Shown in pieces: positions 4,267 to 37,516 of a stretch of DNA of 64,000 nucleotides. The stretch lies in the NCBI GenBank assembly GCA_000002445.1, contig CM000207.1, forward strand, positions 608,001 to 672,000, in the 5' to 3' direction. Origin of the DNA: Trypanosoma brucei (lineage: Eukaryota). How positions within the stretch are numbered: position 1 is the stretch's first letter; each line of letters starts with the position of its first letter. A model generated the notes under the pieces. That model had not been told where the DNA came from, did no database searches, and saw nothing but the letters and a program-made list of their open reading frames with translations. Position numbers and translations under genes: made by a program.

Positions 4267-5921
4267 GCAACCAGCTCGCGCCTCTAAAGTGCGTGTGAGT
4301 TCTTACAGTCTATTACCCACTGTGGCAACGCTCAGCGTTCACCAGAGGCAATCTGAACTACCTTACGACGGCAGCAACCAAGGAAAAGGCAAAAAAGAGA
4401 GAACACAAAAAAACGATCAAAAGAAAACACAGGTACCGGACAACTGTAAGTAGCACGAAACTAAAGTATTATTTGAGTCCCTCACATACAGACCGCAAGG
4501 TAAGCAGCGCCAACACGCACAAAAGGAGGCAACAAACTGCAAAAAGCGGAGAAGGAACTCAAAGAAAAGAAAAGGGGGGAAACGTCCTTAAGCCCGTTAA
4601 TTTTACATTGTGGTCGGAGAACTGAGAAGGTGCCTCCCACCGCCAGCGGCTTCGATGTAGAACACACAGAGAGGCAGGGGAACAATGAACTTATGAAGGG
4701 GTAAGATTCTGAGAAGATTGCGAAGAAAGAGACAAAGAAAAGAGAGAAAACGCAAAAACAAAGCAGAGGGACGTCGAAATCATCCTGTCTCACGCTGCTT
4801 TTTCCGTTTATTTTCTCTCGTTGGTATCTACTTTTTTTTTTCGTCGTCCACTTCCACCCATCTACTATCAGTAACCCTTTCATTGTCCGTGCTTAATTCC
4901 CCTCCTCCCGCATCCAAAGCGCGAACTGCTCACTCGCTGAAAAATACACGACACCCTCATGCGTCCTTAAAGAAACGGCTGCAACGTTCTGAAGCCAACA
5001 TAAATGTACACAGGAGAACTGCAGCTGAGCAAGATACAAAACGACGGGGGAAGAAAATATTATAAACGCGCCTGGAACAAACAGCGTACAACGTTTTCCT
5101 GTACTTGTATGTGCACAAATGCACAAAGACAGAGAGGTAGACGCACATCTACTCAAGAAACAGATTGACAGTACAGTGGTGGGGTAGCGTTTGAAGCCCA
5201 TATGAGCCACCAAACGCAAATGCGGAAACCGAAAAAGAAAACAGCGATGTAATGGAATGCAGCGCAATACGAATGATGATAATTGGGACAATAAAGTACA
5301 CAATAAAACAATCGTCATACGATGTAAAAGCTCCTAACAACTACCACTATTGCCCGGAGAATTAAACAAGGGGAAAGAAAGTTGCGATGAAAAGCACTGG
5401 TTTAACGAAAGTCTCCCTTAAAATGTTGCGCTGCCACTTTGGAGGAGTCCGCTGTCTCACGAGTATCTCCCAGTACCTTTCCATTGGTTGTACTACCTAG
5501 CCCACTGCTACTTCCAGCCATTGCCTTCCACCCCTTCTCATGTATTGCTATCTAACCCTTGTACACAGAGTTCCACCTCATACCTCCACCACTACCCGCT
5601 TATTTCTCATCCTCTTTACAAACCATCCTCCTCGGCCGCACGAGTCCTTGAACTGCGCCCATCCACCAACGGCGAGGTGGAGCAGCCACAATAGACGCAA
5701 TACCCGACATGGAGACGCCAATCCCAACGCCAGTGATCCACTCACGCCCGCTCACTCACCTCAATTATGAACGACAGGTTCTTACCACTGTATGAGTGTA
5801 CGTATCCGCATACGTCCTTACGTCGTTCGAACCCAGTACAGACAGGGCCCCAGGTTCCCCCTTCCTCTTTTCTGCTGAAGTCAGCTATGCAAAGCCACAT
5901 CCCAAGTCCAACTCCCAATAC

Positions 5922-7409
5922 TCAACGATGTTGGGGAATGAGGTCATAAAGCTGCATTAAGTTGGGGAAGCCATGTTCCCAGAGGGCAGACTGAAACTGG
6001 CGGCTCGTGCGTGTATCGTAGCTGAGCCTTGTTATGATTACCAATAACGAATTGGGGGCACTAAACGACGTCGTGATAGCCTCACGCGGTATGCCCAAAG
6101 AAGAACAGAGGTCTAGCACAACGGCACCCGTCAATCTGCCAAAGTCTTTCTGAATCAAATCACTCCATTCCTCATCAGGGGAAGTCAGACGCAGTCGTGT
6201 GACCCGGGGAACGCACTTGTCCGGCTCAACCTTCATCGGACTGTCAACATGAAGAGAAAACAAATTCATACGTTCTATAAGAGACAGCTGAACCGATGAC
6301 GAAGGCTCATCCGAACAATTTCCGTTATTCTGCGCCGGCTCCACACGTTCGGAGGACATTTGTAATGAAGCCTGATCAGTCGATTGCGGTAATTCTTCCA
6401 CTTGGGTTTGCTTGCAGTTAGACAGTGAATACCTTGACATTCTGTACATCGCCGTGCTCTCAGTTGCACGCAGGATGAGTCGTGTAGTAGCCTCATCGGA
6501 ACTTATCTTCCCGCGGCTTATCTCCTCCTCTACGCTAAGATCACGGCAAACGGCCTCATCAAGTCTCAGCTCCTCTTCAGGTGCTGGTACGTGGCCCTTA
6601 ACCTGTGGAGCCCTGAACAACAGCGAAGCCAATGCGTTTGGAGAACTCAACACAGTCCCGTAACCGCCAGTTCGCTTTACAACACCATCCACCTTCAAGA
6701 GGGTCTTAGTCCCCTCCACTGCAAGTGCTTCCGATGGTGCCGCAAGCTCTAACGGCACATCTGCCATCTGGCCCGTCTCATCTTTTTTCACTTCAACAAT
6801 TACATGAAAGCAGTCGGCGTGGAATTGCACCGTCTGTGGCGTCAGCAACGCAAAAGAATCAAAATCCTTATCCAAGTATGTAACGTACAGCACCTGAAAC
6901 TTAAGAAGTGCAGCCTTATCATGAATTATACCCATGACGTCGTCAAAATTCGCTCCCTCCTCTTCACATGGTGCTGGTACTTTCAACTCGCCCAGTTTGG
7001 CACCGGACTCCGTTGCAAAGCACAAGGTCCAATAGCCGGAGTCGTTGATGCAACAATCAGCCAAACAACGATCGTCTGAGGCTGCCACCGGCTGGCGGAA
7101 TCCGTACTCGACAGCCACTTCGCTGAGTTGTATATTTGGAAGTGCCGACGATGCCTTGCAACCCTTCACTTCAAACGGCATAAGACTCTCAATTGACCTT
7201 GCCGTGTCCATTAGCCCTGGGTTTGGTATGTGTTCCTGATGTGCTCTTAAGCAAACACCATCCGGATATGGCGAGAGCGTCTCCGCAGTTGGTAAAAAAC
7301 GGCCGGGCGTCGTCCCGCTGCGAACCGTCAAGTGGGATCCCGATTCCTTCGGGGGAAGGGTATCCACATAGCGCTCAAAGAAGCCACCACGGGGCGATTT
7401 GTCGATCAT
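5922..7409 (-). CDS. hypothetical protein (496 aa from the first ATG)
   Basis: The 538-aa track ORF begins with TTG. The first in-frame ATG is at 7409..7407 (MIDKSPRGGFFERYV...). Long uninterrupted ORF in the sense orientation of the minus-strand cluster. No recognisable domain. Confidence 0.5.
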   Translation of the reverse strand: MIDKSPRGGFFERYVDTLPPKESGSHLTVRSGTTPGRFLPTAETLSPYPDGVCLRAHQEHIPNPGLMDTARSIESLMPFEVKGCKASSALPNIQLSEVAVEYGFRQPVAASDDRCLADCCINDSGYWTLCFATESGAKLGELKVPAPCEEEGANFDDVMGIIHDKAALLKFQVLYVTYLDKDFDSFALLTPQTVQFHADCFHVIVEVKKDETGQMADVPLELAAPSEALAVEGTKTLLKVDGVVKRTGGYGTVLSSPNALASLLFRAPQVKGHVPAPEEELRLDEAVCRDLSVEEEISRGKISSDEATTRLILRATESTAMYRMSRYSLSNCKQTQVEELPQSTDQASLQMSSERVEPAQNNGNCSDEPSSSVQLSLIERMNLFSLHVDSPMKVEPDKCVPRVTRLRLTSPDEEWSDLIQKDFGRLTGAVVLDLCSSLGIPREAITTSFSAPNSLLVIITRLSYDTRTSRQFQSALWEHGFPNLMQLYDLIPQHR

Positions 7410-7630
7410 AGGAAGGCTTTCAACAAAATTTTCTAAATAACGGTACAAAAAGACGGCCGCACCCAACCGCAAATACACAAAGATGTGTGTAGCTCTATGG
7501 ATGGGTGGGTCCCCGTCAAAAATAAGATATATGAGCAATACCCTTTCAGTCGGACACCTTCTAACAAAAAGGTGAAGAAAAATTTAAAAATATACAGACG
7601 CAGATCGAAATAACAAATCAATAAAACAGA

Positions 7631-8612
7631 GAAGGCAACTATATCAGCACGTTTCCCGTTAAATCTGCTATCAGTACACCCCAACAAGAGGGCACCGTGC
7701 CATTACATTCCATTGCACGAAAGTGCTGAAAAAAGGTACACTCAGTTCGCGGGATCATCACGAAGCAGACGAACACATGCTTCTCCGGAGCCACCAGAAG
7801 GCATCATGCGGCACGAAGTGAAGCTCACTGACCTCGGATTGCCCCGTGTTGTGCCTTGAATGCATGGAGGGGAGAGAGTAGGTTCAAATCAAGAAAGCAC
7901 AGAGGGTGAAGAAAGGATTAGATTAAAACTAAGGCAGACACTCCTGGGGAAGGTACAAAATAACGCATCTCGCACAGTGTCGGCACTAGAGCAGCAGCGG
8001 TACGCCATAACTAGCTTCATTTTCTGTGCTGTACAACACTCACACTCTCACACGCCTCAGGAACCCAAGTGGAAGCAGTCATACCCGTTGGGAGCTAATA
8101 GCGCGTTCTCAGTGTACGGAGAAGTTGATATCACTGTAGTGAAGGCAACTATATCAGCACGTTTCCCGTTAAATCTGCTATCAGTACACCCCAACAAGAG
8201 GGCACCGTGCCATTACATTCCATTGCACGAAAGTGCTGAAAAAAGGTACACTCAGTTCGCGGGATCATCACGAAGCAGACCAACACATGCTTCTCCGGAG
8301 CCACCAGAAGGCATCATGCGGCACGAAGTGAAGCTCACTGACCTCGGATTGCCCCGTGTTGTGCCTTGAATGCATGGAGGGGAGAGAGTAGGTTCAAATC
8401 AAGAAAGCACAGAGGGTGAAGAAAGGATTAGATTAAAACTAAGGCAGACACTCCTGGGGAAGGTACAAAATAACGCATCTCGCACAGTGTCGGCACTAGA
8501 GCAGCAGCGGTACGCCATAACTAGCTTCATTTTCTGTGCTGTACAACACTCACACTCTCACACGCCTCAGGAACCCAAGTGGAAGCAGTCATGCCCGTTG
8601 GGAACTAACCAT
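7631..8612. repeat. Tandem direct duplication of a 510-bp unit, about 1.9 copies. Copy 1 is 7631-8140; copy 2 is 8141 to about 8612 and diverges at its 3' end.
   Basis: The string gaaggcaactatatcagcacgtttcccgttaaatctgc... recurs at 7631 and 8141 with near-identity over about 470 bp; one difference is g/c at 7761 versus 8271. Track ORFs 7860..8369 and 8370..8624 have identical 74-aa N-termini. The first ORF is exactly one unit long (510 nt), with its stop overlapping the next ATG (tgaatg). Confidence 0.9.
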
Positions 8613-9242
8613 ATTGTTCTCTAAACCACGAAATATCAAAAAAGGGGGGAAAAGTGATTACCGTGCTTGGGTATCCCTCAATGAATCTTAGCTCAGCAGT
8701 AAACAATGTAAAAGAAATATAATTGTTACTTTACGATTCCATACCTCTTCCTCGGGTGTCAGGGTTAGTAAAGGGACGGACAAAATGCGACACCGTACAT
8801 TCCGTAAGTTTTTATTTTTCAACCGTATCTTCTCTTTTCTTCTCCTCGTTTCCAACTGCTTTCCCTCTATTCTACCTTCCGCGGTCGAGTGGGGCACCGC
8901 ACAAAACAGTGTGGACCATATCCTTCCCTACAGTAGGAAACGGGCATGGCATAGTGGCCCCCTTCACTACAACGCTGGCACAAAAGGAAAAGCATGAGAC
9001 GTTGTCGATCGGGAGGTGAAAACGCCGATAATTATACAGCTTCACATGCAAAATTCAACGCCAAACACCATCTGTCTGGTGTTCAACCACATCAATTAGA
9101 GTGTGCGTGTGGAGGCGCTCACAAAAAATACATTCATGCTTCCCTGGTACATGGAGTTTGGCATCTCACACTCAACAATCAAACCCCACATGCTCATCTT
9201 GTCACTTTCTATCCTCTAAAAGGCAGATGTTTCTTGCATCGC

Positions 9243-9488
9243 TTAGGCAGTTGCGGTTAACCGCGAGCGGTAGTTTCGGAAAGCGCGTTGAATGACTCGG
9301 GCAGACTTTTCATGAGTGGCAGCCGTCGCCTTCGCGCACCGCGCAGTCGCCCATTGTCGTAGGAACTCGTAAACATCATTAGGCTTCTCGCGGACAGCAT
9401 CGGCAACGAAATCCTCAAGGAGGGGGCCTACACCAATGCGCTCGAGATAGTCGCGCTGTCCCTCGCTGTATTCAAGGCCAAAACTCAT
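9243..9488 (-). CDS. small RIIa-like dimerisation/docking domain plus IQ-motif protein (~81 aa)
   Basis: C-terminal part of track ORF 9243..9836. From the internal Met, MSFGLEYSEGQRDYLERIGVGPLLEDFVADAVREKPNDVYEFLRQWA fits an RIIa/DPY-30-type helix-turn-helix docking motif. It is followed by an IQ motif (VIQRAFRNYRSR). The upstream part of the track ORF is Cys/Phe-rich, low-complexity, and begins with a non-ATG codon. The start coordinate is approximate, within a few nt. Confidence 0.4.
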   Translation of the reverse strand: MSFGLEYSEGQRDYLERIGVGPLLEDFVADAVREKPNDVYEFLRQWATARCAKATAATHEKSARVIQRAFRNYRSRLTATA

Positions 9489-10222
9489 GATGCCCGGTAT
9501 GCACTCACAAACCTTACCTTTCCCCCTCACCCTTCTCAGCACTCTAAACGTATCCAGATGAATCCAGCAGAAGGGTGACAATGAGAAGAGGAAGCAGCAC
9601 TGGCACTGAGAAAAAATACAGTCAGCACATGTCCGCCAACGACTGGCCTTACATGCGGATTCACACACACAACACACGCTCTTATCCTTGTCGACGTTAA
9701 CCAATAAATAGCAAAAAAAAGGTAACCAAACGAAACGTACTGAGGTACGACTTTGGTGTCCAGTGAGTTTTGCTACAACTATGGTTGAAAAAAAAAAAAC
9801 AGTACGTAACTCCAAAACATGAAAACACACACACACACGTTCGCAGCGGCCAAACCAACAAAAAATCGCGCAGAGATCTGAAACATATCATCCAAGGCAA
9901 CACACGGACAGTGAACTAAAATAAAAAAGTATTATAAGATAATTCGGCAGCCAGGAAAGCATGTGCCTTACACCCACACGACAACAGAGCTCTGTGGGTT
10001 GGAAACCCCTGTACGACTGTGTACACAGACCCCATGCCCCACCACCGCATACCCAAATCCCCCTAATATCTGTTCCCATTTGTTATTCCAAACCCGCCTT
10101 CCGAGGTAGTGCACTAACTTACTCGAGGCATAGTGTGAAGACCGGTGTTGCTCAGGGGTTGGTGGGGCTGGGGAGAAAACCCATGTTCCCGTCGGCCCAG
10201 GCAGAGGAAGAAGAGCATAAAG

Positions 10223-24645: not shown

Positions 24646-25250
24646 TCCCTAAAAAATCACTAAACAAAGAGGGGGTCACGACGTATATGTGCACCCAGAG
24701 AAAGTAACACAGTCACAACCCCAGTAAAATATCGTAGTGTGAGCAATACAACTGGTTTTTAAAAAAAACGAAGCCTCGAGGGCTCAGCTCGTCCGTCCCT
24801 ACAAAAACAACATGCGCTAAGACAAGAGAACTTTTGCTTAGCCACGGCGAACAAGAAGTTGCTGAAGTTCACATAACACAACCGGAAAAAGCAAAAGTGA
24901 AAAAAAGTGGTAACAAAAAAACGGAAAAAATAAATACAAAAAATGGGTAAACTTTCCATGAACCGTAAGCACGAACTACACATAATTGAGCATACAAAAT
25001 AAACATATGCATTATAAACACCTGGAACAAAATAAACAGCAGTGCAAGACACCGGCTAAGCACCATGACCTTGTGATCATATGCAGCAAGGGTGAACTTC
25101 GGGTACTTTCCTCCCCCCCCAAAAAAAAAGCCCCTTAACCCATAATCATGTCAACTTACACAACAAAGAAAAAAATCATCAAATATTAAAAACCGAACGA
25201 AGCAAAATTAAACGTAAAAACAAGTAAGCGATTTTTAAAAAAAGGGTGCA

Positions 25251-25253
<3 letters not shown>

Positions 25254-25282
<29 letters not shown>
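25254..25282. repeat. (TA)n microsatellite
   Basis: aaaatatatatatatatatatatatatatatac, read directly from the sequence. Confidence 0.9.
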
Positions 25283-25286
<4 letters not shown>

Positions 25287-26722
25287 CATACAGTGATAGC
25301 TGATCGTGAGAAGATGCACGGAGGTTTGATAACGACTCATTTTAAAACAATGGCGTACATGGGGGAAATATTTAAGTTCGTTTGTTTTTGTTTTTTTTTT
25401 TTAAACAGGCACATAACCGCCTTTCGTGGAGAATTTTCGGTGTCCACGAGTAGCCATGCCAATAAACCAAGTAAATTTCTTAACTACAGCTTGCCGAGAG
25501 CGAGCGTCTTATCGCTGGAGTCCACAATCGTAAAAATATTCATCACACGTCATACATAAATGGGAAAGAAAAAAACATTAAAATGTAACGTGGCGATGGG
25601 AAAACAAGAATTTTATCCACACAACCTTATGGCTCCACTATTTTCCCCCTCCCCAGCCTCGCGCACAAAATCCTACCAAATTGTCGCTGGTTACATTCTT
25701 CACCCGAAATGAAATGAGCATGTCCTGCATCCAATGAGAGAGTGAGTGAATGGAAGAAGGTCTGTTTTAAAAAGGGGGGGAGGAAGTCGCTCTTCAACAA
25801 GAAAACATGCTCGCCTTCTGCAATCACCATTTAACAAACATGGTTGAAGCAAACGAACCATCTTCCAAAACACTCGTTTTCTAGCTAATAACTACGTATA
25901 TGTATATTATAACTAAATTGACAAATATTCGTATTTGTATATAAACAACGACAACAACACCAATAATAATAATGGTGATAGCAATTGAAAATGTGCACCT
26001 CATTCCCTTAATTGAACACTTCCGTTGAAGCAGTAAATTAAAGGGAAACACAAAGCATTATAATGATCCCACGTTGAGTCCGAGTGGTGCGATTATGTGT
26101 CATTAAAGCGAATATTCCGTGGAAAGAACGGGTCTCAGCAACAGCATCACCTCGTCAGATCAGTATCCACTACCACAGTTCATTATATCATTTAATTTTT
26201 GCAGCATATCAGGTACCGACACTAGTTCTGGCATGTCAAAAACTGCAATAAAAGGGAAATGGCTAGCACAACTGCTCTCAGCCGGAGTTACCCTCAGTCA
26301 CAACAACCCATATAACTAAGCATTTTTATCCTACACTACCAAAGATAGTAAAATAAACAACAATGCTTGACAATGTTTTTACCCAATAAAAAAAAAAGGT
26401 CAGCTGGTGACAAAAGGATAGAAAAGTTAGAGTAAAACAGATACACCGAGAAGAAACATAGCGCACATTCCAAACGCGACAATTATGTTTCGCCCACCCA
26501 GAGAAAACGTATGTATTGTTCCACAACCCTCCGCTACGGTAAGGGGTAAAAGATATATATGTATGTGTCAACAAAACAGGCTAACAAAACGACGGAATAC
26601 AGTCCTTTACATCAACTCAACCCATTGGGTGTTATACTAGTATTGGCTATGGTCCTACTTTAAAACAATCAAAAAAATAAAAAATGGAAGTAATAACCCC
26701 ATCCGTGAAGATACTAAAGCTA

Positions 26723-27313
26723 CTAGTTACTGATTTTGTTCCCATCCTTGAAAATCTCAGGTCGTTCAATGACAGCAGGTGTCTGGAACACATGATCTGG
26801 TATCTCCGCTCCACGATAAAGCGATTCGAGAAGCGAGGCGGCACCTCGGGGAGTGGCCTCCCACTTCATGGTCTCCAGAAGGGACTTTGCCAAAAAATCC
26901 ACGAGCTCAATGTGTGGTATAACCACCTTTGCATAATCGTCATCAGGGTCAGCAAATGCCTCGAGGTGGTGTCCATCCATCTCAACAGTAAGTTGTCCAC
27001 CTTTGTCATCAAGGATTGGGTAAGCTGTGAGGCTGTAACACTTCAATAGTCGATGTGGGTCACCCAAGTGAGGTGGAAGAAACACCCGAATGTATGTCTT
27101 GTTTTCTTTGGCAACTTCACCTAATCGACGCAGAACATCGGCATCACGAGGATCCATCGTCGAGGCGTACTGACTTCTGATGCGGTCATTTACTTCGGGC
27201 TTGCGAAGCATGCAGCTGAAAATTGTGTCCAACGCCGCATTATCCCAACCTTTCCCAAAGAAGTTACGACTCAAAGGCACAGTTGCCAAAAATGGTGTGA
27301 CAAAGCGCTTCAT
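26723..27313 (-). CDS. conserved hypothetical protein (196 aa), possibly organellar
   Basis: True ATG at 27313..27311. The N-terminus MKRFVTPFLATVPLSRNFF is basic and hydroxylated like a mitochondrial presequence. It is the first gene of the minus-strand cluster next to the strand-switch region. No family recognised. Confidence 0.5.
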   Translation of the reverse strand: MKRFVTPFLATVPLSRNFFGKGWDNAALDTIFSCMLRKPEVNDRIRSQYASTMDPRDADVLRRLGEVAKENKTYIRVFLPPHLGDPHRLLKCYSLTAYPILDDKGGQLTVEMDGHHLEAFADPDDDYAKVVIPHIELVDFLAKSLLETMKWEATPRGAASLLESLYRGAEIPDHVFQTPAVIERPEIFKDGNKISN

Positions 27314-28293
27314 CTAAAACAATAGATCGTTCTATTATCTCTTCAACTTATCTGCTCGTTTGAATTGGGCGATCAAAAAAATACAGAAGATGTTTAGAAC
27401 GGTAAAAATAGGGGTTTACAAAAAAAAATCTCATCGGGAACAGGAAAATGATTTTAAACCAAAGAAAACTCTCGCCTTAACCCTCAATATTTTTATTAGT
27501 CGTTAAAAGGTCAAACGGCATTTTCGGTACCTAAATATTCCATGTAAGTAGATAGACAAGAGCCACCGTGCGATACTGACACCGCCTCAAACCATAAATA
27601 AAGCGGCGAGGGAAAACAACCCGACAATAGATGATGGGACCGACAGAAGACATATTTCGGGAACATATTGTTCCATCCAATTGAGGGGGAACAAGCAACG
27701 AAAGCGTTTTGATTAAATCCTATCTCTGCTTAAGTGTTACCTTACATTGACAACAAGTTCTTCTTTGTATCAACGACCACAGCACCAATAGTGAAACAGG
27801 AAGCGCAGATGCTTTCTATTATGTTCAAATATGTATATATATACATATATATACATATATACATGTAGTTATTGACAGTGTTTTCCAATAGTGTTGATAA
27901 GTGTGCTCTCGACTTTGAAACAATAATTTCACTCAACCGAAAACTACGAGAAATCAACGTAGTGTCGTATCACTAACAAAAAACTTAAGGTGAAAAAGTG
28001 CAAGAATAGTGCTAACGCACAGGAAAATCTGAGTGGAGCATTAGAATAATTCCACCATCAACAAACTGAGCATTACTACCCCCAAGACGTTCTTGGTTGA
28101 AATTTACACTCCGAAAAAAATCGTCAATTATGCATCAACTCTTTCCTCACAAAGTACGGTACCTTCAAGGCAACGCGACGTTGAAAGTTAATAAAGCTCA
28201 TGGAACCCATACATCAACCACATGTGCATAAAGCAAAAACATCTTTTTCCTTCAAAACAAGAAATTAGGCCACAAAACTTAAAGATCATTCAA

Positions 28294-28304
28294 CCCCCCC
28301 CCCC
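28294..28304 (-). repeat. G11 homopolymer on the minus strand (C11 on plus) at the minus-cluster edge of the strand-switch region
   Basis: caaccccccccccctcag, followed by G7 at 28328-28334. Read directly. Confidence 0.85.
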
Positions 28305-31300
28305 TCAGTCAGGAGCTCAACACCACAGGGGGGGTACTCATCTCCCACATCATCGATGTTACGATTACCCTCTAAATAAATCCACATAATGTGGCAAAAA
28401 AAACCCTTCTACATAGACTAGAAACGTAAGCAGGTAACGGGAAACAATACTAAGAACATCCTTTGTAAGGAAAAGGAAAACGCAAACATCCCATAGACAA
28501 GAGCCAGGAATCACTGCGTATTTATTAGCATCCCGTGGGCACCCACAAACTGTACGCCGCAAGCAGTAAATTCCACATAATTAAGGTCAAAGTAATGTCA
28601 CTGTAGCGTCAGCTGCACCTTGCTTACCCTTTTAGGTGCCGCCAATAAGCATACCACTTGGACTACCAGACGATGAAAAGTTAGGTGCCCGCCGGCAAAC
28701 CAATACCAAAAATTAATAACAGTAATGATAACTTTCATAAGGGTGGGACCATGTTGTAGGTATGGACGGCATGCCCCACATGGCAACAAGTGAATATACA
28801 CCAACGCCAAATACCAAATGCACAACCTCAAGTTATCATCAAAGAAAAATATTAATATGGGCGGGAAATGACCAGCCTGACATGGGTTGCACTGGCCAGA
28901 GCGCCTCACCAACCAGTCAAAAGGCATATGGCGGGGGCAAGACACTTTCTATCTGTTACTACCCGAATATGCTCACAAAAGCAATGACATCACACAGAGC
29001 CACACTCTCTCTCTCTCGCCCTCCTTGTCTCGGTTGAAGGAGAAGCGTAGCGGGCCGTACCACCTTAGCCGTTCCACGAATCACCTAAGCCAATCCATCA
29101 CAGCATTCAACTCCACACAACATGTAACTCCGGTTCAGATTATACGTACGCAACCCCACCCCAACCCGCTCATCACATAAATTTAAAATATTGCGGTGCA
29201 TCCTCGCCTCGGTTTCTCGAACAAAAACAAGCAACATCCGCAAAAACTAAACAAAGTAGAGGGACCAAATATGAAAAGGCATAGAATGCGTCGACCCTCA
29301 GCAGCCGTCTCGAAACTGTTGGTGCCGCACCACACACCACAACAACTGCAGCAACAACAACCGCATTCGCTACCCATGGGATAAGAGGGGGGAAATGAGC
29401 AGGTGGGAGCGTGTTCAGGAAATTCTCCACGGCGAGGTAGCCCCTGAGTAGCGACAACCCGAAGCAGAAAGACTTGGGAAGGGGTGGTCGAGCCACAGCA
29501 GTGGCAACCAATCGACGCGCACCGCCAGCATACGCCAGACGGGGAAAGGACTCCCACGCCACCCCGCATTACAAGCAGCGCCGCCACCACAGCGCCGCAG
29601 AAAATAAGGTAAAGTCAGGGGGGAAAACACTCCAACCAGCAACGCGGTACAAATTCCCATACCTTTACCCATGCAGGAGTCGCCAACGTGCCTCAACCCC
29701 CAATACCCCTCGTCAGGAATAGATTGAAATGGAAGAGTATGAAAATAATCTGTCGCGTGACGTCCAACAGTAGCGTTACGGTTCAAGAATGGACACCAGA
29801 ACCCCCTACCACGCAGTTGTGCCAAACACCCAACAAAAAACACAGTCCGGACGAAGTCACCTCGCACCGGCCATATGGAGGTGAGTCCCAGGCCTGCCCC
29901 GCCCAGCACTAAGCACAATGCTGCCCATCTCTCTTATACAGAACGAACAAGGTCAAAAAATGTGCAAACTGCGAAAAAAGCCATCTTCTCTACACCGAAA
30001 GGGCAAATTTCAACCGGTGGAAGAAAAACGACCCCATCCACCCCTCACAAGAGCACCGGCTGCCGGCTGTGACTCAAAGAGAAAAGGAATGCCCATCCTC
30101 TTTCTTGAACACACGGCGATAGTACTTACGTTGCGGCGTTTCGCCGCAAAAAACTTATCCGCACGTCACAGCACACAGCGCAGTTTCCCCGTCCCACATT
30201 CACATCCGGCCGCTTCCCTGCGCCCCAAAAAGGTTATCGCGGGACGACCGGACGACACCTACCCCTTGGTGTGCGCTAAGCCCGTCCCCTCAGTTGACGA
30301 CAGAGATTCTGCACTTTATTGGCGCGCGTTTGGTATCTGCAACGACAAAAAACGTGGTGGGGAACCCCCACCGCAATATTCATCAAAAAAAAAAAAAGCT
30401 GGCGTTGTACGCGACACAACTTGCTAATGGAACTACCCTGTTGCAAACCGAGTGCCACGGGCCACTAAGGACAATGAACGCCACACAACGTTATTTACTG
30501 TTTTGGTGTGTGCCGCAACTCCGAAGAGCCACCAATTTCACTGCAAATATCCTTAAGAGAATCATATCCGTGGAAACACGATAACTTGGGGAAGCCGAAA
30601 CTCATCACACAGGAGAAACTTGGAAATACTAAGGACTAGAGAAATACCCACAGCCATACCGACGCACAGCTGCAACAGTCATTCATGATGGACCGCCCGC
30701 CGCAGCCCGGTGGGTAGAACAATATCGGGGACCCTTGTTCCGTGACAATGGGGTTGGCCAAAATGGAGAATGAGACGGATGCTTCCGCAAGTAATATTGA
30801 GCGGAAACGCCATGCAGCACAGAGGCGAACGTCTTTATATGGCGGTGCTCGACTCCAACGGTGTCAAGAGAAACGTTACAAAATGAGTATATCCAATAAA
30901 AACGGCCTGAAACGTCAGCGGCCGAGTTTAGTACAGTGCTTCCAGGCAGCGACCGCCGGATTTGGAAACAGAACAACGAGGCAACACCATTCCACGCACC
31001 AGTTAGTGATGGCCTGCGCCACGATGCCATCAAAACGCTACAAACACGTACTGCGGGTATACCGAAGGGTAAAAACACTACTGGAATAAGATAATGGAAA
31101 AGGGTTAGTTCCTGTTGAAAACGAACAGCATAAATTCGTGCTAAGACTCTTGAGAACCCCCAGTAGTTCCTAATTCCCAACCCTTCTTGACGACAAACTT
31201 GGTGTGAGAATCACATCGCACCGAGGGAGAAGATGGGCAATTACTCCATAACTCCGAATATATCTGAAGGGTTAAATCCTGTCCCATCTCCTTCCCCGCC

Positions 31301-33599
31301 CGACACTGACCATTTCAAAGGTGATAGAAAGAGAAAACTGTGAGAACATATGGCGACAGGTGAAACGGTGAAAGTCCAAGCGGGGGTTTAGCCACGCCAT
31401 CCTCTTTATTGTTTGTTCCAAATCACCTCAAACAGCGAGCTAAATGAGGGGTGCGCAACAAATTCGCAAACATGGTGCATCAAGCTCACCTACTCTCTAC
31501 ACCGCCTTCTTTCCAACAGATCAAGTGGCAGCAGCTCAATTGGACGAATCTCCCCGACTCCAACAAGTATAGTTTAACAAAGGTTAAACAAAAAGCACAA
31601 TCCCAAAACTCTGCTGTTACTAGCCGCAACTGCTTTCTTTCCCAACCTACGTCCCCTACTGCGGAACTAAATCACCAAAATAGTTTCCTCCCTAACACCC
31701 AAGCGATAAGGAGCAAGGCTGCTAATGAATATGCGCCACGGAATGAGCGCCGCACCTACGAATAGGACACGTAAACACATTGGTAGACTCAAAAAAAAAA
31801 AAAGAGGCATATATAGTCCAGAAAATCCTTTCGAGCTACTGCGACCCTGACAAGCTCCGACAACCACGTCAAAGCAAAACTATATTCCTCTCGTCACCTA
31901 TTGACAATCCGAGGTTTGTAGCGTTCTGTTCACATCAGGAAAAAGAATATGGTCCTGCACTATTCAAAACGAAAAAGAGAAGGCTACTACCGACAAGGCT
32001 CCTCAGATTGAGAACTCCTTTCTCGACAGTGTGGGATTCAATAGCCCGAGCACTGCGTGCACCCCGACTCGGAGCGGCAGGGAAACGATCATGCAGGGAA
32101 TCGAGCACCGCCACATTTTCCCTCATTTTTTTGGAAGAATGCGGTGGGGTCACGACGGCAAGTAACCAACATGATCACAGGCGTGACGGGTGGAGAGAGC
32201 GGGGAAGATGCGGTTGAGTTGGCTCAGCTGATCATCGTTAGGGGTGTAGTTTGCAAGAGGGGAGTGGAATGTTACCTGAAATGGGAAGCCGTCGATTAAA
32301 CATTCAGTGAAGTCATAAGAAAAGCCGGACCTTCTGGACTACCCTATGCATAATGAGTTGGATGCTGCCAAGTGTTAGTGTAACAAAGTGGGGAAGACTT
32401 ACCGCAAAAGGAAAGCTTGGTGTGGATCGTTTTCGGGGTTGCAAGCACGGCCCTATCCCTCGAGTGGGCTGAGGGAAGATGCGCCGTGCGAAGAGAAAAA
32501 TAGAGGTGTCCGTTGCCATCCACCACCAAACCTGAACAGAAGGTTCTGCTGAATTGGATATGCCGAGCGGTGGAGAAACTTTCATATTTGATAAGGCAGA
32601 AAGACGGCTGAGTTACGCAGAAGGATCGGTAAGCTGCCACGTGACTTCCGAGGGGGGAGGGCTGCAATGAAGATTGTGCTTGAAAGGCCTCTAAGAGAAA
32701 CGGCATACAAGGCAAAGGGTGGGGTCCGGGTTAGAGACGTTCAACAAATTCGAACCGTCCCTCTTTTCTTTAAAGGCGGAACCAACACGTATAAAAGGTT
32801 ACGTCCTTCGCCCTATATGGAGAAGGGATCGGTGCAGCTCGTTAGGAATATGCCCCTATAAGTGCATTATGTTTTCTATTGCTCTAATTTTTATTGAAAC
32901 TAATTACCCGGCTACGGGGGCGGGTCTACAACCGGAACACCCTCCGTGCGGCACTAATACCGTGATATAGTTGTCGATTCAAAAGGCATCAGCGGTGAAT
33001 ACTTCAATTTTAACGCAGCAGTTTGAGGGCCGTCACGCACGGTATCAACGCTTTCTCTCATACCCCTTCTGCTAGGAAAGATATGGAAGCGGCGCGGAGA
33101 CAAGAGAAATTTCCCGCTTGGTTTTTCTTCTGGCGCAACGAAACGGTTCGGATGATATCTAGGATGGCTGAGCAACTGCATCAACCGAATGAGAGACGCG
33201 GTTGGTGCAGAATAGAGCAAATAATGAGGAGTCGCCGCCCCCTACACACACACACACATAATGTGAAGTTTAGTCGGAACAGCTCATACCTCGCGTGGTG
33301 GATAAACGTTTGGCGCCCAGTGATACGCCCGGGCAGTGATGCGGTATCGTTCCAGCGATTAACGTGGGTTGCTCATGCGACGGGGAAAAAAATCTGTAGA
33401 AAGGGTTGGACAAGGAACGAGTTGGAAAAACGCCTCAGAACGCGATGGGAATGTCGGGGATTGTGCATATCCTTTGTATGCGCGTGACTGTCCAGGACGC
33501 CCAAACACCCGAGAGTGCGCGCCATCAAACACAGAGGGGCGCTGCTATCCGAAACGAGCGACACCCAATGCGTGCACGTGTGGTTGTGTGGGAGAGCGC

Positions 33600-33615
33600 G
33601 GGGGGGGGGGGGGGG
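33600..33615 (+). repeat. G16 homopolymer
   Basis: gcgcgggggggggggggggggagtgg, read directly. It lies about 770 bp upstream of the first plus-strand gene. Confidence 0.85.
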
Positions 33616-33795
33616 AGTGGTGGGCTCGATGGCTGAAAGATACGGCTAATACGATGGTGCCCGATGTCTGCGGTGTCTGAAAACGCGTTTTATAGCAGTC
33701 CAACCAGGGGTGTGTATGGCGCACAAGGATTGAGGAGGAGAGTCAGCAGTAGGAACGCAATCGCAGGTAATGGCAGGAGGGGGTGCGTGTGTGTT

Positions 33796-33808
33796 GGGGG
33801 GGGGGGGG
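33796..33808 (+). repeat. G13 homopolymer
   Basis: gtgttgggggggggggggcagtg, read directly. Confidence 0.85.
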
Positions 33809-34260
33809 CAGTGCGGTGGTGATGTATTGCCGAGGTCGGTGCATTTTATGCCGGTGCTGGCAGTTGTTAGTGAATAAGAACGCTGGGACATAGTTCTGTG
33901 GGCCTTATTCGGTAGGGTACAGTCTTTTTTTCTTGTTGTCATGCCTATGTGTGGGGAAGTGGGGATGCGGGTCAGCACCGTGGTTTATGTGACTCTTGTT
34001 GCTGTGCCCTCGCTCGTTGATGCATTTCACCATCAGCTTTACAGATGTGTGCGCTTCTTACGTTAATGGATGCTGACGTCGGCATTTTTTTTTTTGATGC
34101 TATTGATGGGTTTGGTAAAGTGTTACCTGGAGATTGTAGAAACTTGCGGGCGGTCAGGTGTAATTTTTTTAAATCGGTCCCTTCCATGTGAAATGACTAA
34201 GTGTTGTGTTCACTACTGGCAAGGTATGATTTCCTGGACTCAACTTTAACGTTTAGAATG

Positions 34261-34290
34261 GTTTGTCATTTTTTTCCTCGTTTTTTTGTA
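34261..34290 (+). promoter_or_regulatory. polypyrimidine tract; candidate trans-splicing signal upstream of the first plus-strand gene
   Basis: tttttttcctcgtttttttgtacaactgcc, with AG dinucleotides downstream before the ATG at 34371. Inferred from general trypanosomatid mRNA processing. Confidence 0.4.
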
Positions 34291-34370
34291 CAACTGCCTC
34301 TGATTATTGTTGTGAGTTTTTCTTCAATTATATTTTGTCCTACGCTTTGGGCACTTTCCGGCCTTAAGAT

Positions 34371-35522
34371 ATGACGGCAGTGGTGAATGAGTTCCTTAAG
34401 CGCGGTGTACGAGCGTTAGCAGCTCGCCAGGATTCCGTTCTTGTGATGGGTAACGAAGGAGGTGACATGGACACCGTGATTGGCTCTATATTTCTGGCGA
34501 TGTACCTGGAAAAGCGTGACGTATTTGGTGTTGGTAGTTACGTTCCTGTACTAAACTTCGAAAAGGATGACTTACCACTGCGACAAGATGTGGTTAAGTT
34601 ACTGTCACGACACAACGTTTCTACAGACAGTATTTACTCAGTCAAGCAAAGTGGGAATGGTGTGGATTTCCTGGACCTACATCAAATGAAGCTTCCCATC
34701 GTTTTGTATGATCACAACAAGCTAAGTCCTGAGCAGGTTTATTTGGGAGAAAGGATCGTGGGTGTGGTCGACCATCACGAAGATGAGCAACTATACGTGG
34801 ATCAGACCAAATGCCTCCGAAGGATTTGCAAGACGGGTTCGGCTTGCACCCTTGTTGCAGAACTTTTCAACGAGGCGGGGTTGGAGGTTCCGTGCCCTGA
34901 GCTCCTCTTAGCCCCAATTGTAGTAGATACTGTAAACTTTGAACCGTCGCAAAAGAGGGTAACTGAACGAGACATTTTGGCCTCCAGGCTGCTGGTTGGG
35001 CGGGACGATTGCGGCGACTACCTGACGGGCATGTTTAAAGAACTAATGGCGTGGAAAAATGATATCCACTGCCTCACTGTTCCTCAGCACCTACGGCGGG
35101 ACTATAAAAACTTTGAATTTCCCTTTATTAGTGCTGAAAACAAGATATTGCGAGTTGGAATAAGCAGTATTTCGTGTCGTTCTGACGAATTACTATCCGT
35201 CCATGGTGTGAGTAGTGTGTCATCAAATTGCATTGAATTCATCAAACAGAGGTCAATCGACATGCTTCTCTTGACCTTCGCTGGTGAAAGAACTCCAGGG
35301 AGTTACTGTCGTCAGTTAGGTGTTGTTGCGAAGGATGAGGGACTCGCGGCTCTGCAAGCCTATTGTAAGAAATCACCCAGCGGGCTCGACTTTACTCTTC
35401 TGGAGGATGTAACAGTTAATGAGTGGGCCTTTTCAATTTACGAGCTGAGCGACCCTTCCGTGTCTCGGAAAAAGTTGGTTCCATCGCTGACTAGTTTTTT
35501 GTCAGTGTGGAACAATTTGTAA
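34371..35522 (+). CDS. DHH-family phosphoesterase (exopolyphosphatase/prune-like; DHH plus DHHA2)
   Basis: True ATG. Motifs present are GNEGGDMDT (motif I DxD), LYDHN (motif II), VVDHHEDEQ (DHH motif III) and a C-terminal DHHA2-like region. 383 aa. Confidence 0.75.
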   Translation: MTAVVNEFLKRGVRALAARQDSVLVMGNEGGDMDTVIGSIFLAMYLEKRDVFGVGSYVPVLNFEKDDLPLRQDVVKLLSRHNVSTDSIYSVKQSGNGVDFLDLHQMKLPIVLYDHNKLSPEQVYLGERIVGVVDHHEDEQLYVDQTKCLRRICKTGSACTLVAELFNEAGLEVPCPELLLAPIVVDTVNFEPSQKRVTERDILASRLLVGRDDCGDYLTGMFKELMAWKNDIHCLTVPQHLRRDYKNFEFPFISAENKILRVGISSISCRSDELLSVHGVSSVSSNCIEFIKQRSIDMLLLTFAGERTPGSYCRQLGVVAKDEGLAALQAYCKKSPSGLDFTLLEDVTVNEWAFSIYELSDPSVSRKKLVPSLTSFLSVWNNL

Positions 35523-37345: not shown

Positions 37346-37516
37346 ATGTCGCGCGGCAACCAACGGGAACTTGCTCGCGAAAAGAACTTGAAAAAGAAGG
37401 AGAAGACAAAGGGGCAACGGGACGACGGATTAACTTTCGCCCAACGAAAAGAAGCTGATGCCGAGCGGATGCGCAGAAAGCAAGCGGAGGCTGATGCGCG
37501 GAAGACTGGTTGTTGA
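37346..37516 (+). CDS. SERF/4F5-family small EDRK-rich protein (56 aa); absent from the ORF track because it is under 60 aa
   Basis: ATG at 37346, TGA at 37514-37516. MSRGNQRELAREKNLKKKEKTKGQRDDGLTFAQRKEADAERMRRKQAEADARK is near-identical in its first 14 residues to the SERF/4F5 signature MTRGNQRELARQKN. It is on the sense strand of the plus-strand cluster. Confidence 0.6.
   Translation: MSRGNQRELAREKNLKKKEKTKGQRDDGLTFAQRKEADAERMRRKQAEADARKTGC

What the first reader, a model, noticed from the sequence alone, without database searches (positions are those of the whole stretch)
27314..34370. Long (~7 kb) divergent strand-switch region with outward-facing G-runs on both strands
Gene orientation flips from all-minus to all-plus across a 7-kb gene-free gap, which is the expected architecture of a bidirectional RNA polymerase II transcription start region in trypanosomatids. 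The only conspicuous sequence features are long guanine homopolymers positioned on the strand that will be transcribed outward. These are G11 on the minus strand at 28294-28304, and G16 and G13 on the plus strand at 33600-33615 and 33796-33808. G-tracts have been associated with divergent start regions in trypanosomes. The gap is large for such a region and is GC-rich in its centre (29.2-30.7 kb), where many overlapping composition-driven ORFs occur on both strands.
Basis: partly seen in the sequence, partly recalled or inferred. Interest (0 to 1): 0.5.

Follow-up and report, generated by a model that had tools for sequence, protein, structure and literature searches.

The report
Known trypanosome bidirectional transcription start region
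This 7-kb gap is an ordinary, already mapped place on Trypanosoma brucei chromosome 9 where RNA polymerase II starts transcribing two gene clusters in opposite directions, and its long G-runs are the published sequence hallmark of such regions.

Summary
The window is T. brucei chromosome 9, and Tb927_09_v4 coordinate = window + 608,000. Genes to the left run on the minus strand, ending with cytochrome oxidase subunit V (COXV, 26723-27313). Genes to the right run on the plus strand, starting with the exopolyphosphatase PPX/XPP (34371-35522).

Kolev et al. 2010 (Table S14) list both flanking units as "Divergent" pol II units. Wedel et al. 2017 found G10 to be the 10-mer most enriched on the coding strand at the 5' end of start regions.

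Three refinements:
- **The gap is transcribed.** A published trans-spliced, polyadenylated RNA, Tb9.NT.18, maps to 31684-32929 (+). Plus-strand initiation therefore lies about 1.9 kb upstream of G16. The composition switch is at about 32.07-32.12 kb.
- **No hidden genes were found.** No tRNA, Rfam, Pfam or retroelement signal appeared in the gap.
- **The size reflects a rearrangement.** The right half is the XPP side of the classic Leishmania chromosome 1 strand-switch region. That region is 1.2-1.8 kb in T. cruzi, T. theileri and L. donovani. The left partner differs in T. brucei.

G-run lengths are not conserved in T. b. gambiense. Interest is low.

The parts
26723..27313 (-). Cytochrome c oxidase subunit V (Tb09.160.1820), first gene of the minus-strand transcription unit
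   Evidence: It is 99% identical to T. equiperdum COXV. The published poly(A) site at 634,511 with a 3'UTR of 212 nt fits window + 608,000.
27314..34370 (.). Divergent strand-switch region: two back-to-back dispersed RNA polymerase II transcription start regions
   Evidence: Based on ORF orientation, the skew flip, the strand-polar start-region 10-mers and Kolev 2010 Table S14.
27314..32070 (-). Left part with minus-sense composition (plus strand A+C-rich). I infer it is the untranslated leader and start region of the COXV unit. It includes the GC-rich centre (29.0-30.5 kb) with composition-driven ORFs.
   Evidence: GT excess is -0.10 to -0.29 in every 500-bp bin. Minus-strand start-region 10-mers peak at 29-30 kb with 8 hits. 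Codon log-likelihood of the ORFs is <=0.08 against 0.10-0.23 for real genes. The annotated ORFs Tb09.160.1830-1900 gave no transcript (Kolev Table S2).
28294..28304 (-). G11 on the minus (sense) strand
   Evidence: Seen. In T. b. gambiense it reads CCCCTC with a 5-nt deletion, so it is not conserved.
32070..32115 (.). Point where strand composition switches (minimum of cumulative G-C and GT-AC skew)
31630..31683 (+). Polypyrimidine tract (31631-31662) and AG (31682-31683): trans-splice acceptor of Tb9.NT.18
   Evidence: The sequence is. The transcript 5' end at 639,684 equals window 31,684. The site is conserved in T. b. gambiense.
31684..32929 (+). Tb9.NT.18, a published low-abundance trans-spliced and polyadenylated transcript of 1,245 nt (about 0.43 RNA per cell), probably non-coding
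   Evidence: Kolev 2010 Table S7. It holds no ATG-initiated ORF of 100 aa or more.
33051..33487 (+). Second processing unit: a polypyrimidine tract and AG (33051-33075), then an ATG ORF at 33083-33487 (134 aa). The ORF is probably Tb09.160.1920 and is not a conserved coding gene.
   Evidence: The sequence is. The ORF is cut by a stop and by frameshifts in T. b. gambiense and T. equiperdum, while the polyY-AG is conserved. Codon log-likelihood is -0.057. The assignment to Tb09.160.1920 is inferred from ID order.
33590..33624 (+). G16 (33600-33615) within the only canonical G-quadruplex motif of the gap
   Evidence: The run is G11 in T. b. gambiense.
33796..33808 (+). G13, preceded by a (GT)n-like stretch at 33783-33794
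   Evidence: It is interrupted (G5TGGTGGG) in T. b. gambiense.
34085..34290 (+). T-rich polypyrimidine tracts (T11 at 34085-34095; 34269-34290) upstream of PPX. I infer these are the trans-splice signals of the first conserved plus-strand gene.
34371..35522 (+). DHH/DHHA2 exopolyphosphatase (PPX/XPP), first conserved gene of the plus-strand unit. It is the orthologue of the XPP gene that flanks the Leishmania chromosome 1 strand-switch region.
   Evidence: Pfam, homologues, synteny and Puechberty 2007.

Best explanation
The region is a divergent strand-switch region of Trypanosoma brucei chromosome 9 (Tb927_09_v4 about 635,314-642,370). It is a pair of back-to-back dispersed RNA polymerase II start regions.

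Polymerase enters over a broad zone around the composition switch at about 31.6-32.1 kb. Leftward, it transcribes on the minus strand through about 4.4 kb of non-coding leader to the first trans-splice site just upstream of COXV. Rightward, it transcribes on the plus strand.

The plus-strand primary transcript is cut by coupled trans-splicing and polyadenylation into three pieces. These are the low-abundance RNA Tb9.NT.18 (31684-32929), a second short unit starting near 33,076, and then the PPX mRNA.

The G- and T-rich sense-strand sequences, including G11, G16 and G13, belong to the known 'GT-rich promoter' signature. According to published work, that signature disfavours nucleosomes, favours H2A.Z deposition and makes initiation directional.

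Shown here:
- the anatomy and strand polarity of the signature;
- the absence of hidden genes;
- the match of published transcript ends to splice signals in the sequence;
- the synteny break.

Taken from the literature: that this locus starts transcription in both directions.

Inferred: where exactly the starts lie, and what the G-runs do.

The gap is 7 kb rather than 1.2-1.8 kb because, in African trypanosomes, a rearrangement split the ancestral XPP/PAXP strand switch. The XPP half is now joined head-to-head to the COXV unit.
For: - **Identity.** Rfam finds the TB9Cs1 snoRNA cluster. The window is 98.4% identical to T. b. gambiense chromosome 9. Four published coordinates fit window + 608,000 exactly: the Tb09.160.1830 ORF, the COXV poly(A) site and the 3' ends of Tb09.160.1980 and 1990.
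- **Polarity.** The GC-skew and GT-excess minima lie at 32,070-32,115. G>=4 runs occur at 7.6/kb on the plus strand against 1.7/kb for C in 32.0-34.4 kb.
- **Published signature.** In Wedel 2017 Dataset EV1, GGGGGGGGGG is the top 10-mer, with 132 coding-strand against 17 non-coding-strand occurrences in the 5' fifth of 199 start regions. Scanning the window with the 157 listed 10-mers that I used gives minus-strand hits left of 31.1 kb and plus-strand hits right of 32.1 kb, with few exceptions (in the gap, only the (AC)n at 33250). The window maximum is at 33-34 kb. GT-rich elements drive directional transcription and H2A.Z deposition.
- **Published mapping.** Kolev 2010 Table S14 lists both units as 'Divergent'. 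The paper reports 5'-triphosphate RNA enrichment 'at every divergent transcription unit'.
- **Transcript in the gap.** The 5' end of Tb9.NT.18 coincides with an AG preceded by a polypyrimidine tract. Its poly(A) site at 32,929 lies about 145 nt upstream of the next polyY-AG at 33,051-33,075, as expected for coupled processing.
- **No genes.** Kolev Table S2 lists Tb09.160.1830-1900 and 1930 as giving no transcript.
- **Synteny.** The right side is conserved in T. vivax, T. cruzi, T. theileri and L. donovani chromosome 1. The left-side genes of those species are absent from the window. COXV lies elsewhere in T. cruzi, behind a desaturase gene. Puechberty 2007 names this strand switch as a synteny breakpoint with the XPP cluster inverted in T. 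brucei.
Against: - No transcription or chromatin data could be mapped here. Start positions inside the gap are inferred from one splice site and from base composition.
- The Tb9.NT.18 acceptor at 31,684 lies about 400 bp inside DNA that still has minus-sense composition. The simple picture of a switch point equal to the boundary between two start regions is therefore only approximate.
- The G-runs are poorly conserved even in T. b. gambiense (C11 lost, G16->G11, G13 interrupted). They are absent from the orthologous regions of T. cruzi, T. vivax and T. theileri. Their exact form is therefore not required, and a role for them at this locus is unproven.
- ATG ORFs of 100 aa or more are somewhat more frequent than a second-order Markov model predicts (8 against 3.9 +/- 1.8, P about 0.02).
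Confidence: 0.92

Rival explanations
1. The G-runs are by-products of mutation, not functional elements. On this view they arise from homopolymer slippage added to transcription-associated strand skew. The start region would work equally well without them.
For: The lengths differ between subspecies. C11 is CCCCTC, G16 is G11 and G13 is G5TGGTGGG in T. b. gambiense. No runs of 7 or more occur at the orthologous region in T. cruzi or T. vivax, and only G7/C7 in T. theileri. G/C runs of 10-11 also occur inside transcription units, two of them on the antisense strand. The G16 and G13 runs lie about 1.9 kb downstream of the earliest evidence of plus-strand transcription.
Against: Genome-wide, G10 is the 10-mer most enriched on the coding strand at the 5' end of start regions, 132 against 17. 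Synthetic GT-rich elements drive directional transcription and H2A.Z deposition. A G12 also sits on the XPP-sense strand of the L. donovani orthologue. The matching poly(C) tract is conserved in position in 15 Leishmania species.
Confidence: 0.3
2. Besides starting transcription, the gap serves as an ORC1/CDC6 binding site and possibly as an early replication origin, as some transcription-unit boundaries do in T. brucei.
For: Tiengwe et al. 2012 report extensive functional interaction between replication initiation and transcription in the T. brucei genome. That ORC1/CDC6 sites concentrate at transcription-unit boundaries is my recollection of that paper, which I did not read. The gap has A-runs on the plus strand to the left (A13 at 30385 and 31791) and T-runs to the right (T11 at 34085), plus a G4 motif. 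That layout resembles the poly(dA)/poly(dT) origin topology described in PMC13179062.
Against: In PMC13179062, start, termination and head-to-tail regions were not enriched in origins mapped by short nascent strands. Only a minority of boundaries act as origins (my recollection of Tiengwe 2012). The A/T-run pattern is simply the transcription-linked skew. In Leishmania, deleting the orthologous strand switch did not affect chromosome stability.
Confidence: 0.2
3. The GC-rich centre (about 28.9-31.2 kb) is a decayed gene or retroelement left by the rearrangement that created this strand switch.
For: The locus is a synteny breakpoint. The T. vivax counterpart is about 16.5 kb and holds an RVT_1 fragment. 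The centre has CDS-like GC content and the lowest stop-codon density of the gap, 59/kb. Long ORFs show a modest excess.
Against: No Pfam domain appeared in any frame at E<=1. There was no tblastn hit at E<=1 in the centre to T. cruzi L1Tc proteins or to the genes that flank COXV or XPP in other species. The only sub-1 hits in the gap are two short alignments (E = 0.038 and 0.58) to one unannotated 122-aa T. vivax ORF, which I read as chance. The gap shows no nucleotide similarity to the other species' loci, no dispersed repeats and no codon bias. Low T on the plus strand and low A on the minus strand deplete stop codons on both strands, which explains the ORFs.
Confidence: 0.07
4. The gap contains a real, unannotated gene (protein-coding or structural RNA), so it is two shorter intergenic regions rather than one long strand switch.
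For: Tb9.NT.18 is a genuine processed RNA. Kolev Table S14 lists Tb09.160.1920, which lies inside the gap, as the first annotated ORF of the plus unit.
Against: Tb9.NT.18 has no ATG ORF of 100 aa or more and is present at about 0.4 copies per cell. The 134-aa ORF at 33083-33487 is broken in T. b. gambiense and T. equiperdum. There are no Rfam or tRNA hits. Between subspecies the gap diverges like intergenic DNA, at 1-3.4 substitutions per 100 bp against 0-0.4 for coding sequence. Both RNAs are on the outward plus strand, so they would not change the divergent architecture in any case.
Confidence: 0.08

Closest known systems
T. brucei divergent strand-switch regions / RNA pol II transcription start regions (Siegel 2009; Kolev 2010; Wedel 2017)
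   Same: Divergent units, no canonical promoter, broad bidirectional initiation, and a GT-rich coding strand with G-runs at the 5' end. The locus itself is in Kolev's Table S14.
   Different: Nothing essential differs. The non-coding span (7.06 kb) is several times that of the orthologous regions in other genera. It is asymmetric, with about 4.7 kb on the minus side and 2.3 kb on the plus side of the skew switch.
Leishmania major chromosome 1 strand-switch region (Martinez-Calvillo 2003; Puechberty 2007)
   Same: The right-hand flank is the orthologous XPP gene and cluster. A homopolymer G tract lies on the XPP-sense strand upstream of XPP in both. It is G12 at -1111 in L. donovani, and G16 and G13 at -771 and -575 here. 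Bidirectional initiation is reported for both.
   Different: The partner cluster differs: PAXP in Leishmania, T. cruzi and T. theileri, and COXV here. The length is 0.9-1.8 kb there against 7 kb here. There is no sequence similarity. T. cruzi, T. theileri and T. vivax lack the tract, so it is probably recurrent rather than inherited.
Retroelement-rich or centromeric strand-switch regions of T. brucei and T. cruzi (Obado 2007, PMC1868937)
   Same: It is a long strand-switch region at a synteny breakpoint. The T. vivax counterpart carries a reverse-transcriptase fragment.
   Different: There are no retroelement domains, no AT-rich tandem repeat arrays and no dispersed repeats.
Mammalian CpG-island-type dispersed bidirectional promoters
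   Same: Broad, bidirectional initiation without a TATA box, defined by composition and chromatin. Kolev 2010 and Wedel 2017 both draw this analogy.
   Different: Here the promoter drives polycistronic units of tens of genes. mRNA 5' ends are made by trans-splicing, not by initiation.

Membership tests
Trypanosomatid divergent strand-switch region / pol II transcription start region | Two polycistronic gene clusters that read away from each other | tested here: met
   Minus-strand genes lie left of 27313 and plus-strand genes right of 34371. Opposite-strand ORFs are shadows.
Trypanosomatid divergent strand-switch region / pol II transcription start region | Strand-asymmetric composition (G over C, T over A on the coding strand) that flips inside the region | tested here: met
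   Cumulative skew minima lie at 32,070-32,115.
Trypanosomatid divergent strand-switch region / pol II transcription start region | GT-rich 10-mers and G-runs enriched on the coding strand near the 5' end of each start region (Wedel 2017) | tested here: met
   I scanned with 157 of the published 10-mers. Polarity is strict, and the window maximum of 18 hits lies at 33-34 kb (+). The minus side is more modest, with 8 hits at 29-30 kb.
Trypanosomatid divergent strand-switch region / pol II transcription start region | No protein-coding, pol I or pol III genes that would explain the gap otherwise | tested here: met
   The protein word search saturated its candidate list, so that single negative is weak.
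Trypanosomatid divergent strand-switch region / pol II transcription start region | Primary (5'-triphosphate) transcripts arising in both directions | tested here: met
   I did not recompute this. Kolev 2010 Table S14 lists both flanking units as 'Divergent' putative pol II units.
Trypanosomatid divergent strand-switch region / pol II transcription start region | Enrichment of H2A.Z, H2B.V, H4K10ac, H3K4me3, BDF3 and SPARC | not testable with these tools
   This needs ChIP-seq tracks, for example Siegel 2009, Wedel 2017 (GSE98061) or Staneva 2022.
Orthologue of the Leishmania chromosome 1 XPP/PAXP strand-switch region | Flanked on one side by XPP (exopolyphosphatase) and its cluster | tested here: met
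   The protein is 40% identical to L. donovani XPP on chromosome 1. The downstream order (SERF-like, Cmc1-like, pseudouridine synthase, GNAT, thioredoxin, enkurin) is conserved.
Orthologue of the Leishmania chromosome 1 XPP/PAXP strand-switch region | Flanked on the other side by PAXP (WD40) and its cluster | tested here: not met
   None of the left-flank proteins of T. cruzi, T. theileri or L. donovani hit the window. The left flank is COXV. Puechberty 2007 reports the same break. Only half of the region is orthologous.
Retroelement-bearing or centromeric strand-switch region | Reverse-transcriptase, endonuclease or RNase H remnants, or AT-rich tandem repeat arrays | tested here: not met
Replication origin | ORC1/CDC6 binding and early replication | not testable with these tools
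   This needs ChIP-chip, MFA-seq or SNS-seq tracks.

The most novel reading that the evidence does not exclude
This strand switch is a chimera that shows start regions are modular. An inversion in the African-trypanosome lineage split the ancestral XPP/PAXP bidirectional promoter. The XPP half still fires here, next to a new partner. The PAXP half may survive as the 'Internal' start that Kolev lists at Tb09.160.2340. COXV is the third gene of its unit in T. cruzi, behind a 187-aa gene and a desaturase. In T. brucei it became a first gene behind 4.4 kb of orphan, minus-skewed DNA that now acts as its start region.

In addition, the plus-strand start lies inside minus-sense DNA, because the Tb9.NT.18 acceptor is at 31,684. 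The two start regions therefore interdigitate, and the G16 and G13 runs would mark a second, internal start cluster or a nucleosome barrier rather than the promoter edge.
Probability: 0.3. Interest if true: 0.35.

Novelty: already known. Interest (0 to 1): 0.1.

Why it matters
It matters little as a discovery. This kind of region, its G-run signature and this very locus are all in the literature. It is useful as a check that the scan recognises trypanosomatid start regions from sequence alone. It is also a tidy example of two points. A strand-switch region can be a rearrangement breakpoint and still work as a promoter. Homopolymer length at such sites is evolutionarily fluid.

Tried and rejected
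- **Retroelement or pseudogene in the centre.** I translated the gap in six frames with stops masked and searched Pfam at E<=1. Nothing matched.
- **Remnants of flanking genes.** I ran tblastn with T. cruzi L1Tc-like ORFs, the desaturase, the 187-aa gene, the PAXP-side genes and the T. vivax gap ORFs. None gave a credible hit in the gap. The best were two short alignments (E = 0.038 and 0.58) to one unannotated 122-aa T. vivax ORF.
- **Conserved non-coding element.** I compared the gap by blastn and nhmmer with the T. vivax, T. cruzi, T. theileri and L. donovani loci. Nothing matched.
- **Structural RNA.** Rfam at gathering threshold and at E<=1, plus ARAGORN. The only hit was a chance mir-297 match on a (TA)n repeat.
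- **Repeats.** Only (TA)n, (AC)n and homopolymers were found.
- **Homologues of gap ORFs.** A concatenated-ORF search returned nothing, but its candidate list hit the 8,000 cap, so that negative is weak. An exhaustive HMMER search with the best-scoring ORF (29173-29562, minus) returned nothing.
- **T. congolense locus.** It is not on record.
- **Papers.** Siegel 2009 and Cordon-Obras 2022 are not held in the library. What I say about them rests on my own knowledge or on citing papers.
- **One script timed out** and was rerun.

Full report
**What the window is.** Rfam finds two tandem copies of the snoRNA cluster TB9Cs1 (H1/H2/H3) at 7.8-8.6 kb on the minus strand. The exopolyphosphatase encoded at 34371-35522 is found with an identical sequence on T. 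b. gambiense chromosome 9 (FN554972.1) and in T. equiperdum. The window is 98.4% identical to the gambiense chromosome over 12 kb.

Published TREU927 coordinates fit window + 608,000 exactly at four independent points:
- the ORF Tb09.160.1830 (636,762-637,037 = 28762-29037);
- the COXV poly(A) site at 634,511, with a 3'UTR of 212 nt;
- the 3' ends of Tb09.160.1980 and Tb09.160.1990.

The window is therefore T. brucei TREU927-like chromosome 9, positions 608,001-672,000 of version 4.

**The observation.** The three homopolymers are exactly as described: C11 at 28294-28304, G16 at 33600-33615 and G13 at 33796-33808. The last minus-strand gene is cytochrome c oxidase subunit V (26723-27313). The first conserved plus-strand gene is a DHH/DHHA2 exopolyphosphatase. 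The two start codons are 7,057 bp apart. A minus ORF of at least 950 aa runs off the left end of the window. A plus ORF of at least 541 aa runs off the right end, and it explains the 443-aa antisense ORF near 63 kb.

Such G-runs are wildly improbable under a Markov model. Homopolymers are frequent throughout this genome, however. Eight G/C runs of 10 or more occur in the window, and five of them lie outside the gap. The G11 alone therefore means little. The notable points are the two longest runs lying 180 bp apart, and all three gap runs being on the outward strand.

**Polarity.** GC skew and G+T excess are negative on the plus strand up to about 32.07-32.12 kb and positive after that. The switch is therefore off-centre, with about 4.7 kb of minus-sense DNA and about 2.3 kb of plus-sense DNA. 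G>=4 runs reach 7.6/kb on the plus strand of the right part, against 1.7/kb for C.

I scanned the window with 157 of the 10-mers that Wedel et al. 2017 list as at least 6-fold enriched on the coding strand of 199 start regions. The top entry in that list is GGGGGGGGGG, at 132 against 17 in the 5' fifth. Hits are almost purely minus-strand left of 31.1 kb and plus-strand right of 32.1 kb. The highest bin in the window is 33-34 kb, with 18 hits, mostly from the two G-runs and an adjacent GT-rich stretch. A minus-strand maximum of 8 hits lies at 29-30 kb.

**Is anything hidden in the gap?** I found nothing:
- no tRNA, and no Rfam family at gathering threshold or at E<=1;
- no Pfam domain in the ORFs or in stop-masked six-frame translations;
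- no credible similarity to retroelement proteins or to genes that flank the orthologous loci elsewhere;
- no nucleotide similarity to the T. vivax, T. cruzi, T. theileri or L. donovani loci;
- no dispersed repeats.

The ORFs of the GC-rich centre have codon log-likelihoods of -0.11 to 0.08, against 0.10-0.23 for the window's real genes. There are 8 ATG ORFs of 100 aa or more, against 3.9 +/- 1.8 expected when trinucleotide content is kept. Their density is not far from that of other intergenic stretches, at about 1.1 per kb against about 0.6 per kb pooled and up to 1.1 per kb in single stretches. The plus strand is T-poor there (17%), so stop codons are depleted on both strands. 'Composition-driven' is a fair description.

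Searches for homologues found none. One of the two was limited by a saturated candidate list. Between T. b. brucei and T. b. gambiense, the gap diverges at 1-3.4 substitutions per 100 bp, like other intergenic DNA. Coding sequence diverges at 0-0.4.

**Published data for this locus.** Kolev et al. 2010 (PMC2936537) mapped putative pol II units with 5'-triphosphate RNA-seq. Their Table S14 lists 'Tb09.160.1820 -> Tb09.160.0340, minus, Divergent' and 'Tb09.160.1920 -> Tb09.160.2290, plus, Divergent'. Their Table S2 lists the annotated gap ORFs Tb09.160.1830-1900 and 1930 as giving no detectable transcript.

Their Table S7 lists one novel trans-spliced, polyadenylated RNA inside the gap. This is Tb9.NT.18, at 639,684-640,929 on the plus strand, which is window 31684-32929, at about 0.43 copies per cell. 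In the window sequence, position 31684 is preceded by AG (31682-31683) and by a polypyrimidine tract (31631-31662). The published end therefore matches a canonical acceptor.

The poly(A) site at 32,929 lies about 145 nt upstream of a second polypyrimidine-AG (33051-33075). That signal is followed 8 nt later by the ATG of a 134-aa ORF (33083-33487), which is probably Tb09.160.1920. This ORF carries a premature stop and frameshifts in T. b. gambiense and T. equiperdum, while the splice signal is conserved. It is an RNA-processing unit, not a conserved gene.

The consequence is that plus-strand transcription starts left of about 31,630. That is about 1.9 kb upstream of G16, in DNA whose composition is still minus-sense.

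**Evolution and size.** The plus-strand cluster is syntenic in T. vivax, T. cruzi, T. theileri and L. donovani chromosome 1. It runs PPX, a SERF-like ORF, a Cmc1-like ORF, pseudouridine synthase, GNAT, thioredoxin and enkurin.

In T. cruzi, T. theileri and L. donovani, the gene-free distance upstream of PPX is only 1.2, 1.6 and about 0.9-1.8 kb. The divergent partner there is a WD40 (PAXP) cluster, none of whose genes is in this window. That is the classic Leishmania chromosome 1 strand-switch region. Puechberty et al. 2007 (PMC1805754) describe XPP and PAXP flanking it, a conserved poly(C) tract at the mapped initiation site, conservation in T. cruzi (1,211 bp), and a synteny break with the XPP cluster inverted in T. 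brucei.

On the other side, COXV and its downstream genes are syntenic with T. cruzi. There, however, COXV lies about 130 kb away on the same contig, behind a 187-aa gene and a fatty-acid desaturase. An unidentified trypanosomatid contig also has the desaturase followed by COXV. In T. vivax, COXV and PPX are again divergent neighbours, but about 16.5 kb apart with extra ORFs and a reverse-transcriptase fragment.

The 7-kb gap is thus a junction specific to African trypanosomes. I could not identify where its left 4.4 kb came from.

**The G-runs.** In the XPP-sense orientation, L. donovani has G12 at -1111 from the start codon. This matches the Leishmania poly(C) tract. T. brucei has G16 and G13 at -771 and -575. 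T. cruzi and T. vivax have no run of 7 or more there, and T. theileri has only G7/C7.

Within the T. brucei group the lengths change. In gambiense they read CCCCTC, G11 and G5TGGTGGG. The T. equiperdum assembly breaks into Ns right at both runs, so its lengths are unreliable. The runs are therefore a recurrent, length-fluid feature rather than a conserved element. The only canonical G4 motif in the gap is at 33590-33624.

**Mechanism.** The region is a dispersed bidirectional pol II promoter. That the locus initiates in both directions is shown by the literature. The polarity of the signature, the first plus-strand processing sites and the absence of other genes are shown here.

I infer that initiation is concentrated around 31-32 kb. 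I also infer that the minus primary transcript runs about 4 kb to the COXV acceptor near 27.33-27.45 kb. The G/T-rich sense strand, G-runs included, would then help exclude nucleosomes, recruit H2A.Z and bias direction, as Wedel 2017 showed with synthetic elements.

**Comparison and verdict.** The locus meets every testable defining feature of a T. brucei divergent start region. It is only half-orthologous to the Leishmania chromosome 1 strand switch. It is not a retroelement-bearing or centromeric strand switch. A replication-origin role cannot be judged here. The finding is correct, well interpreted and already known, so interest is low.

Noticed in passing
window 7628-8619 (-): There are two tandem copies (510-bp period, 99% identical) of the snoRNA cluster TB9Cs1 (H2, H1, H3). 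This is a known cluster, and it is what identified the chromosome.
   Followed up: partly
window 26500-28500: This 2-kb block covers COXV and the 1.2 kb upstream of it, including the G11. It diverges only 0.4 per 100 bp between T. b. brucei and T. b. gambiense, like coding sequence. The rest of the gap diverges at 1-3.4 per 100 bp. I count about 5 substitutions where about 18 would be expected. It could reflect constraint on the COXV-proximal leader, or a local genealogy effect.
   Followed up: no
window 30000-30500 and 33500-34000: These are the two most divergent 500-bp bins between the subspecies, at 3.4 and 3.1 substitutions per 100 bp plus indels. The second bin holds both G-runs.
   Followed up: no
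window 24759-26403 (-): The published novel transcript Tb9.NT.17 (1,644 nt) fills the AT-rich stretch (GC 0.37-0.41) between COXV and the next minus-strand gene. No ORF of note lies there.
   Followed up: no
L004 about 1-10000 and L010 1-10000 (T. vivax SOPI01000070.1): In T. vivax the COXV-PPX interval is about 16.5 kb. It holds several ORFs without Pfam hits on both strands, and an RVT_1 fragment at L004 6479-6835. The same junction has evolved differently there and carries retroelement debris.
   Followed up: partly
L002 about 3235-3292 and 3458-3485 (T. equiperdum CZPT02001311.1): The assembly has runs of N immediately after both G-runs. These homopolymers apparently break short-read assemblies, so published G-run lengths at such sites should be treated with caution.
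   Followed up: partly
window 37346-37510 (+): A small SERF-like ORF of about 56 aa (Tb09.160.1980) is conserved with T. cruzi. It is too short for the default ORF list.
   Followed up: partly
window 62259-63590 (-): A 443-aa ORF without Pfam hits lies antisense to a plus-strand ORF that is open from about 62,377 to the window end. It is most likely a shadow ORF.
   Followed up: partly
window 33244-33258: An (AC)7.5 microsatellite lies inside the 134-aa ORF. Its length differs among the three T. brucei-group genomes and causes the frameshifts that break the ORF.
   Followed up: yes
L009 20409-20438 (L. donovani chr 1): A C30 homopolymer lies about 10.4 kb downstream of XPP inside the plus-oriented cluster, on the antisense strand.
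   Followed up: no
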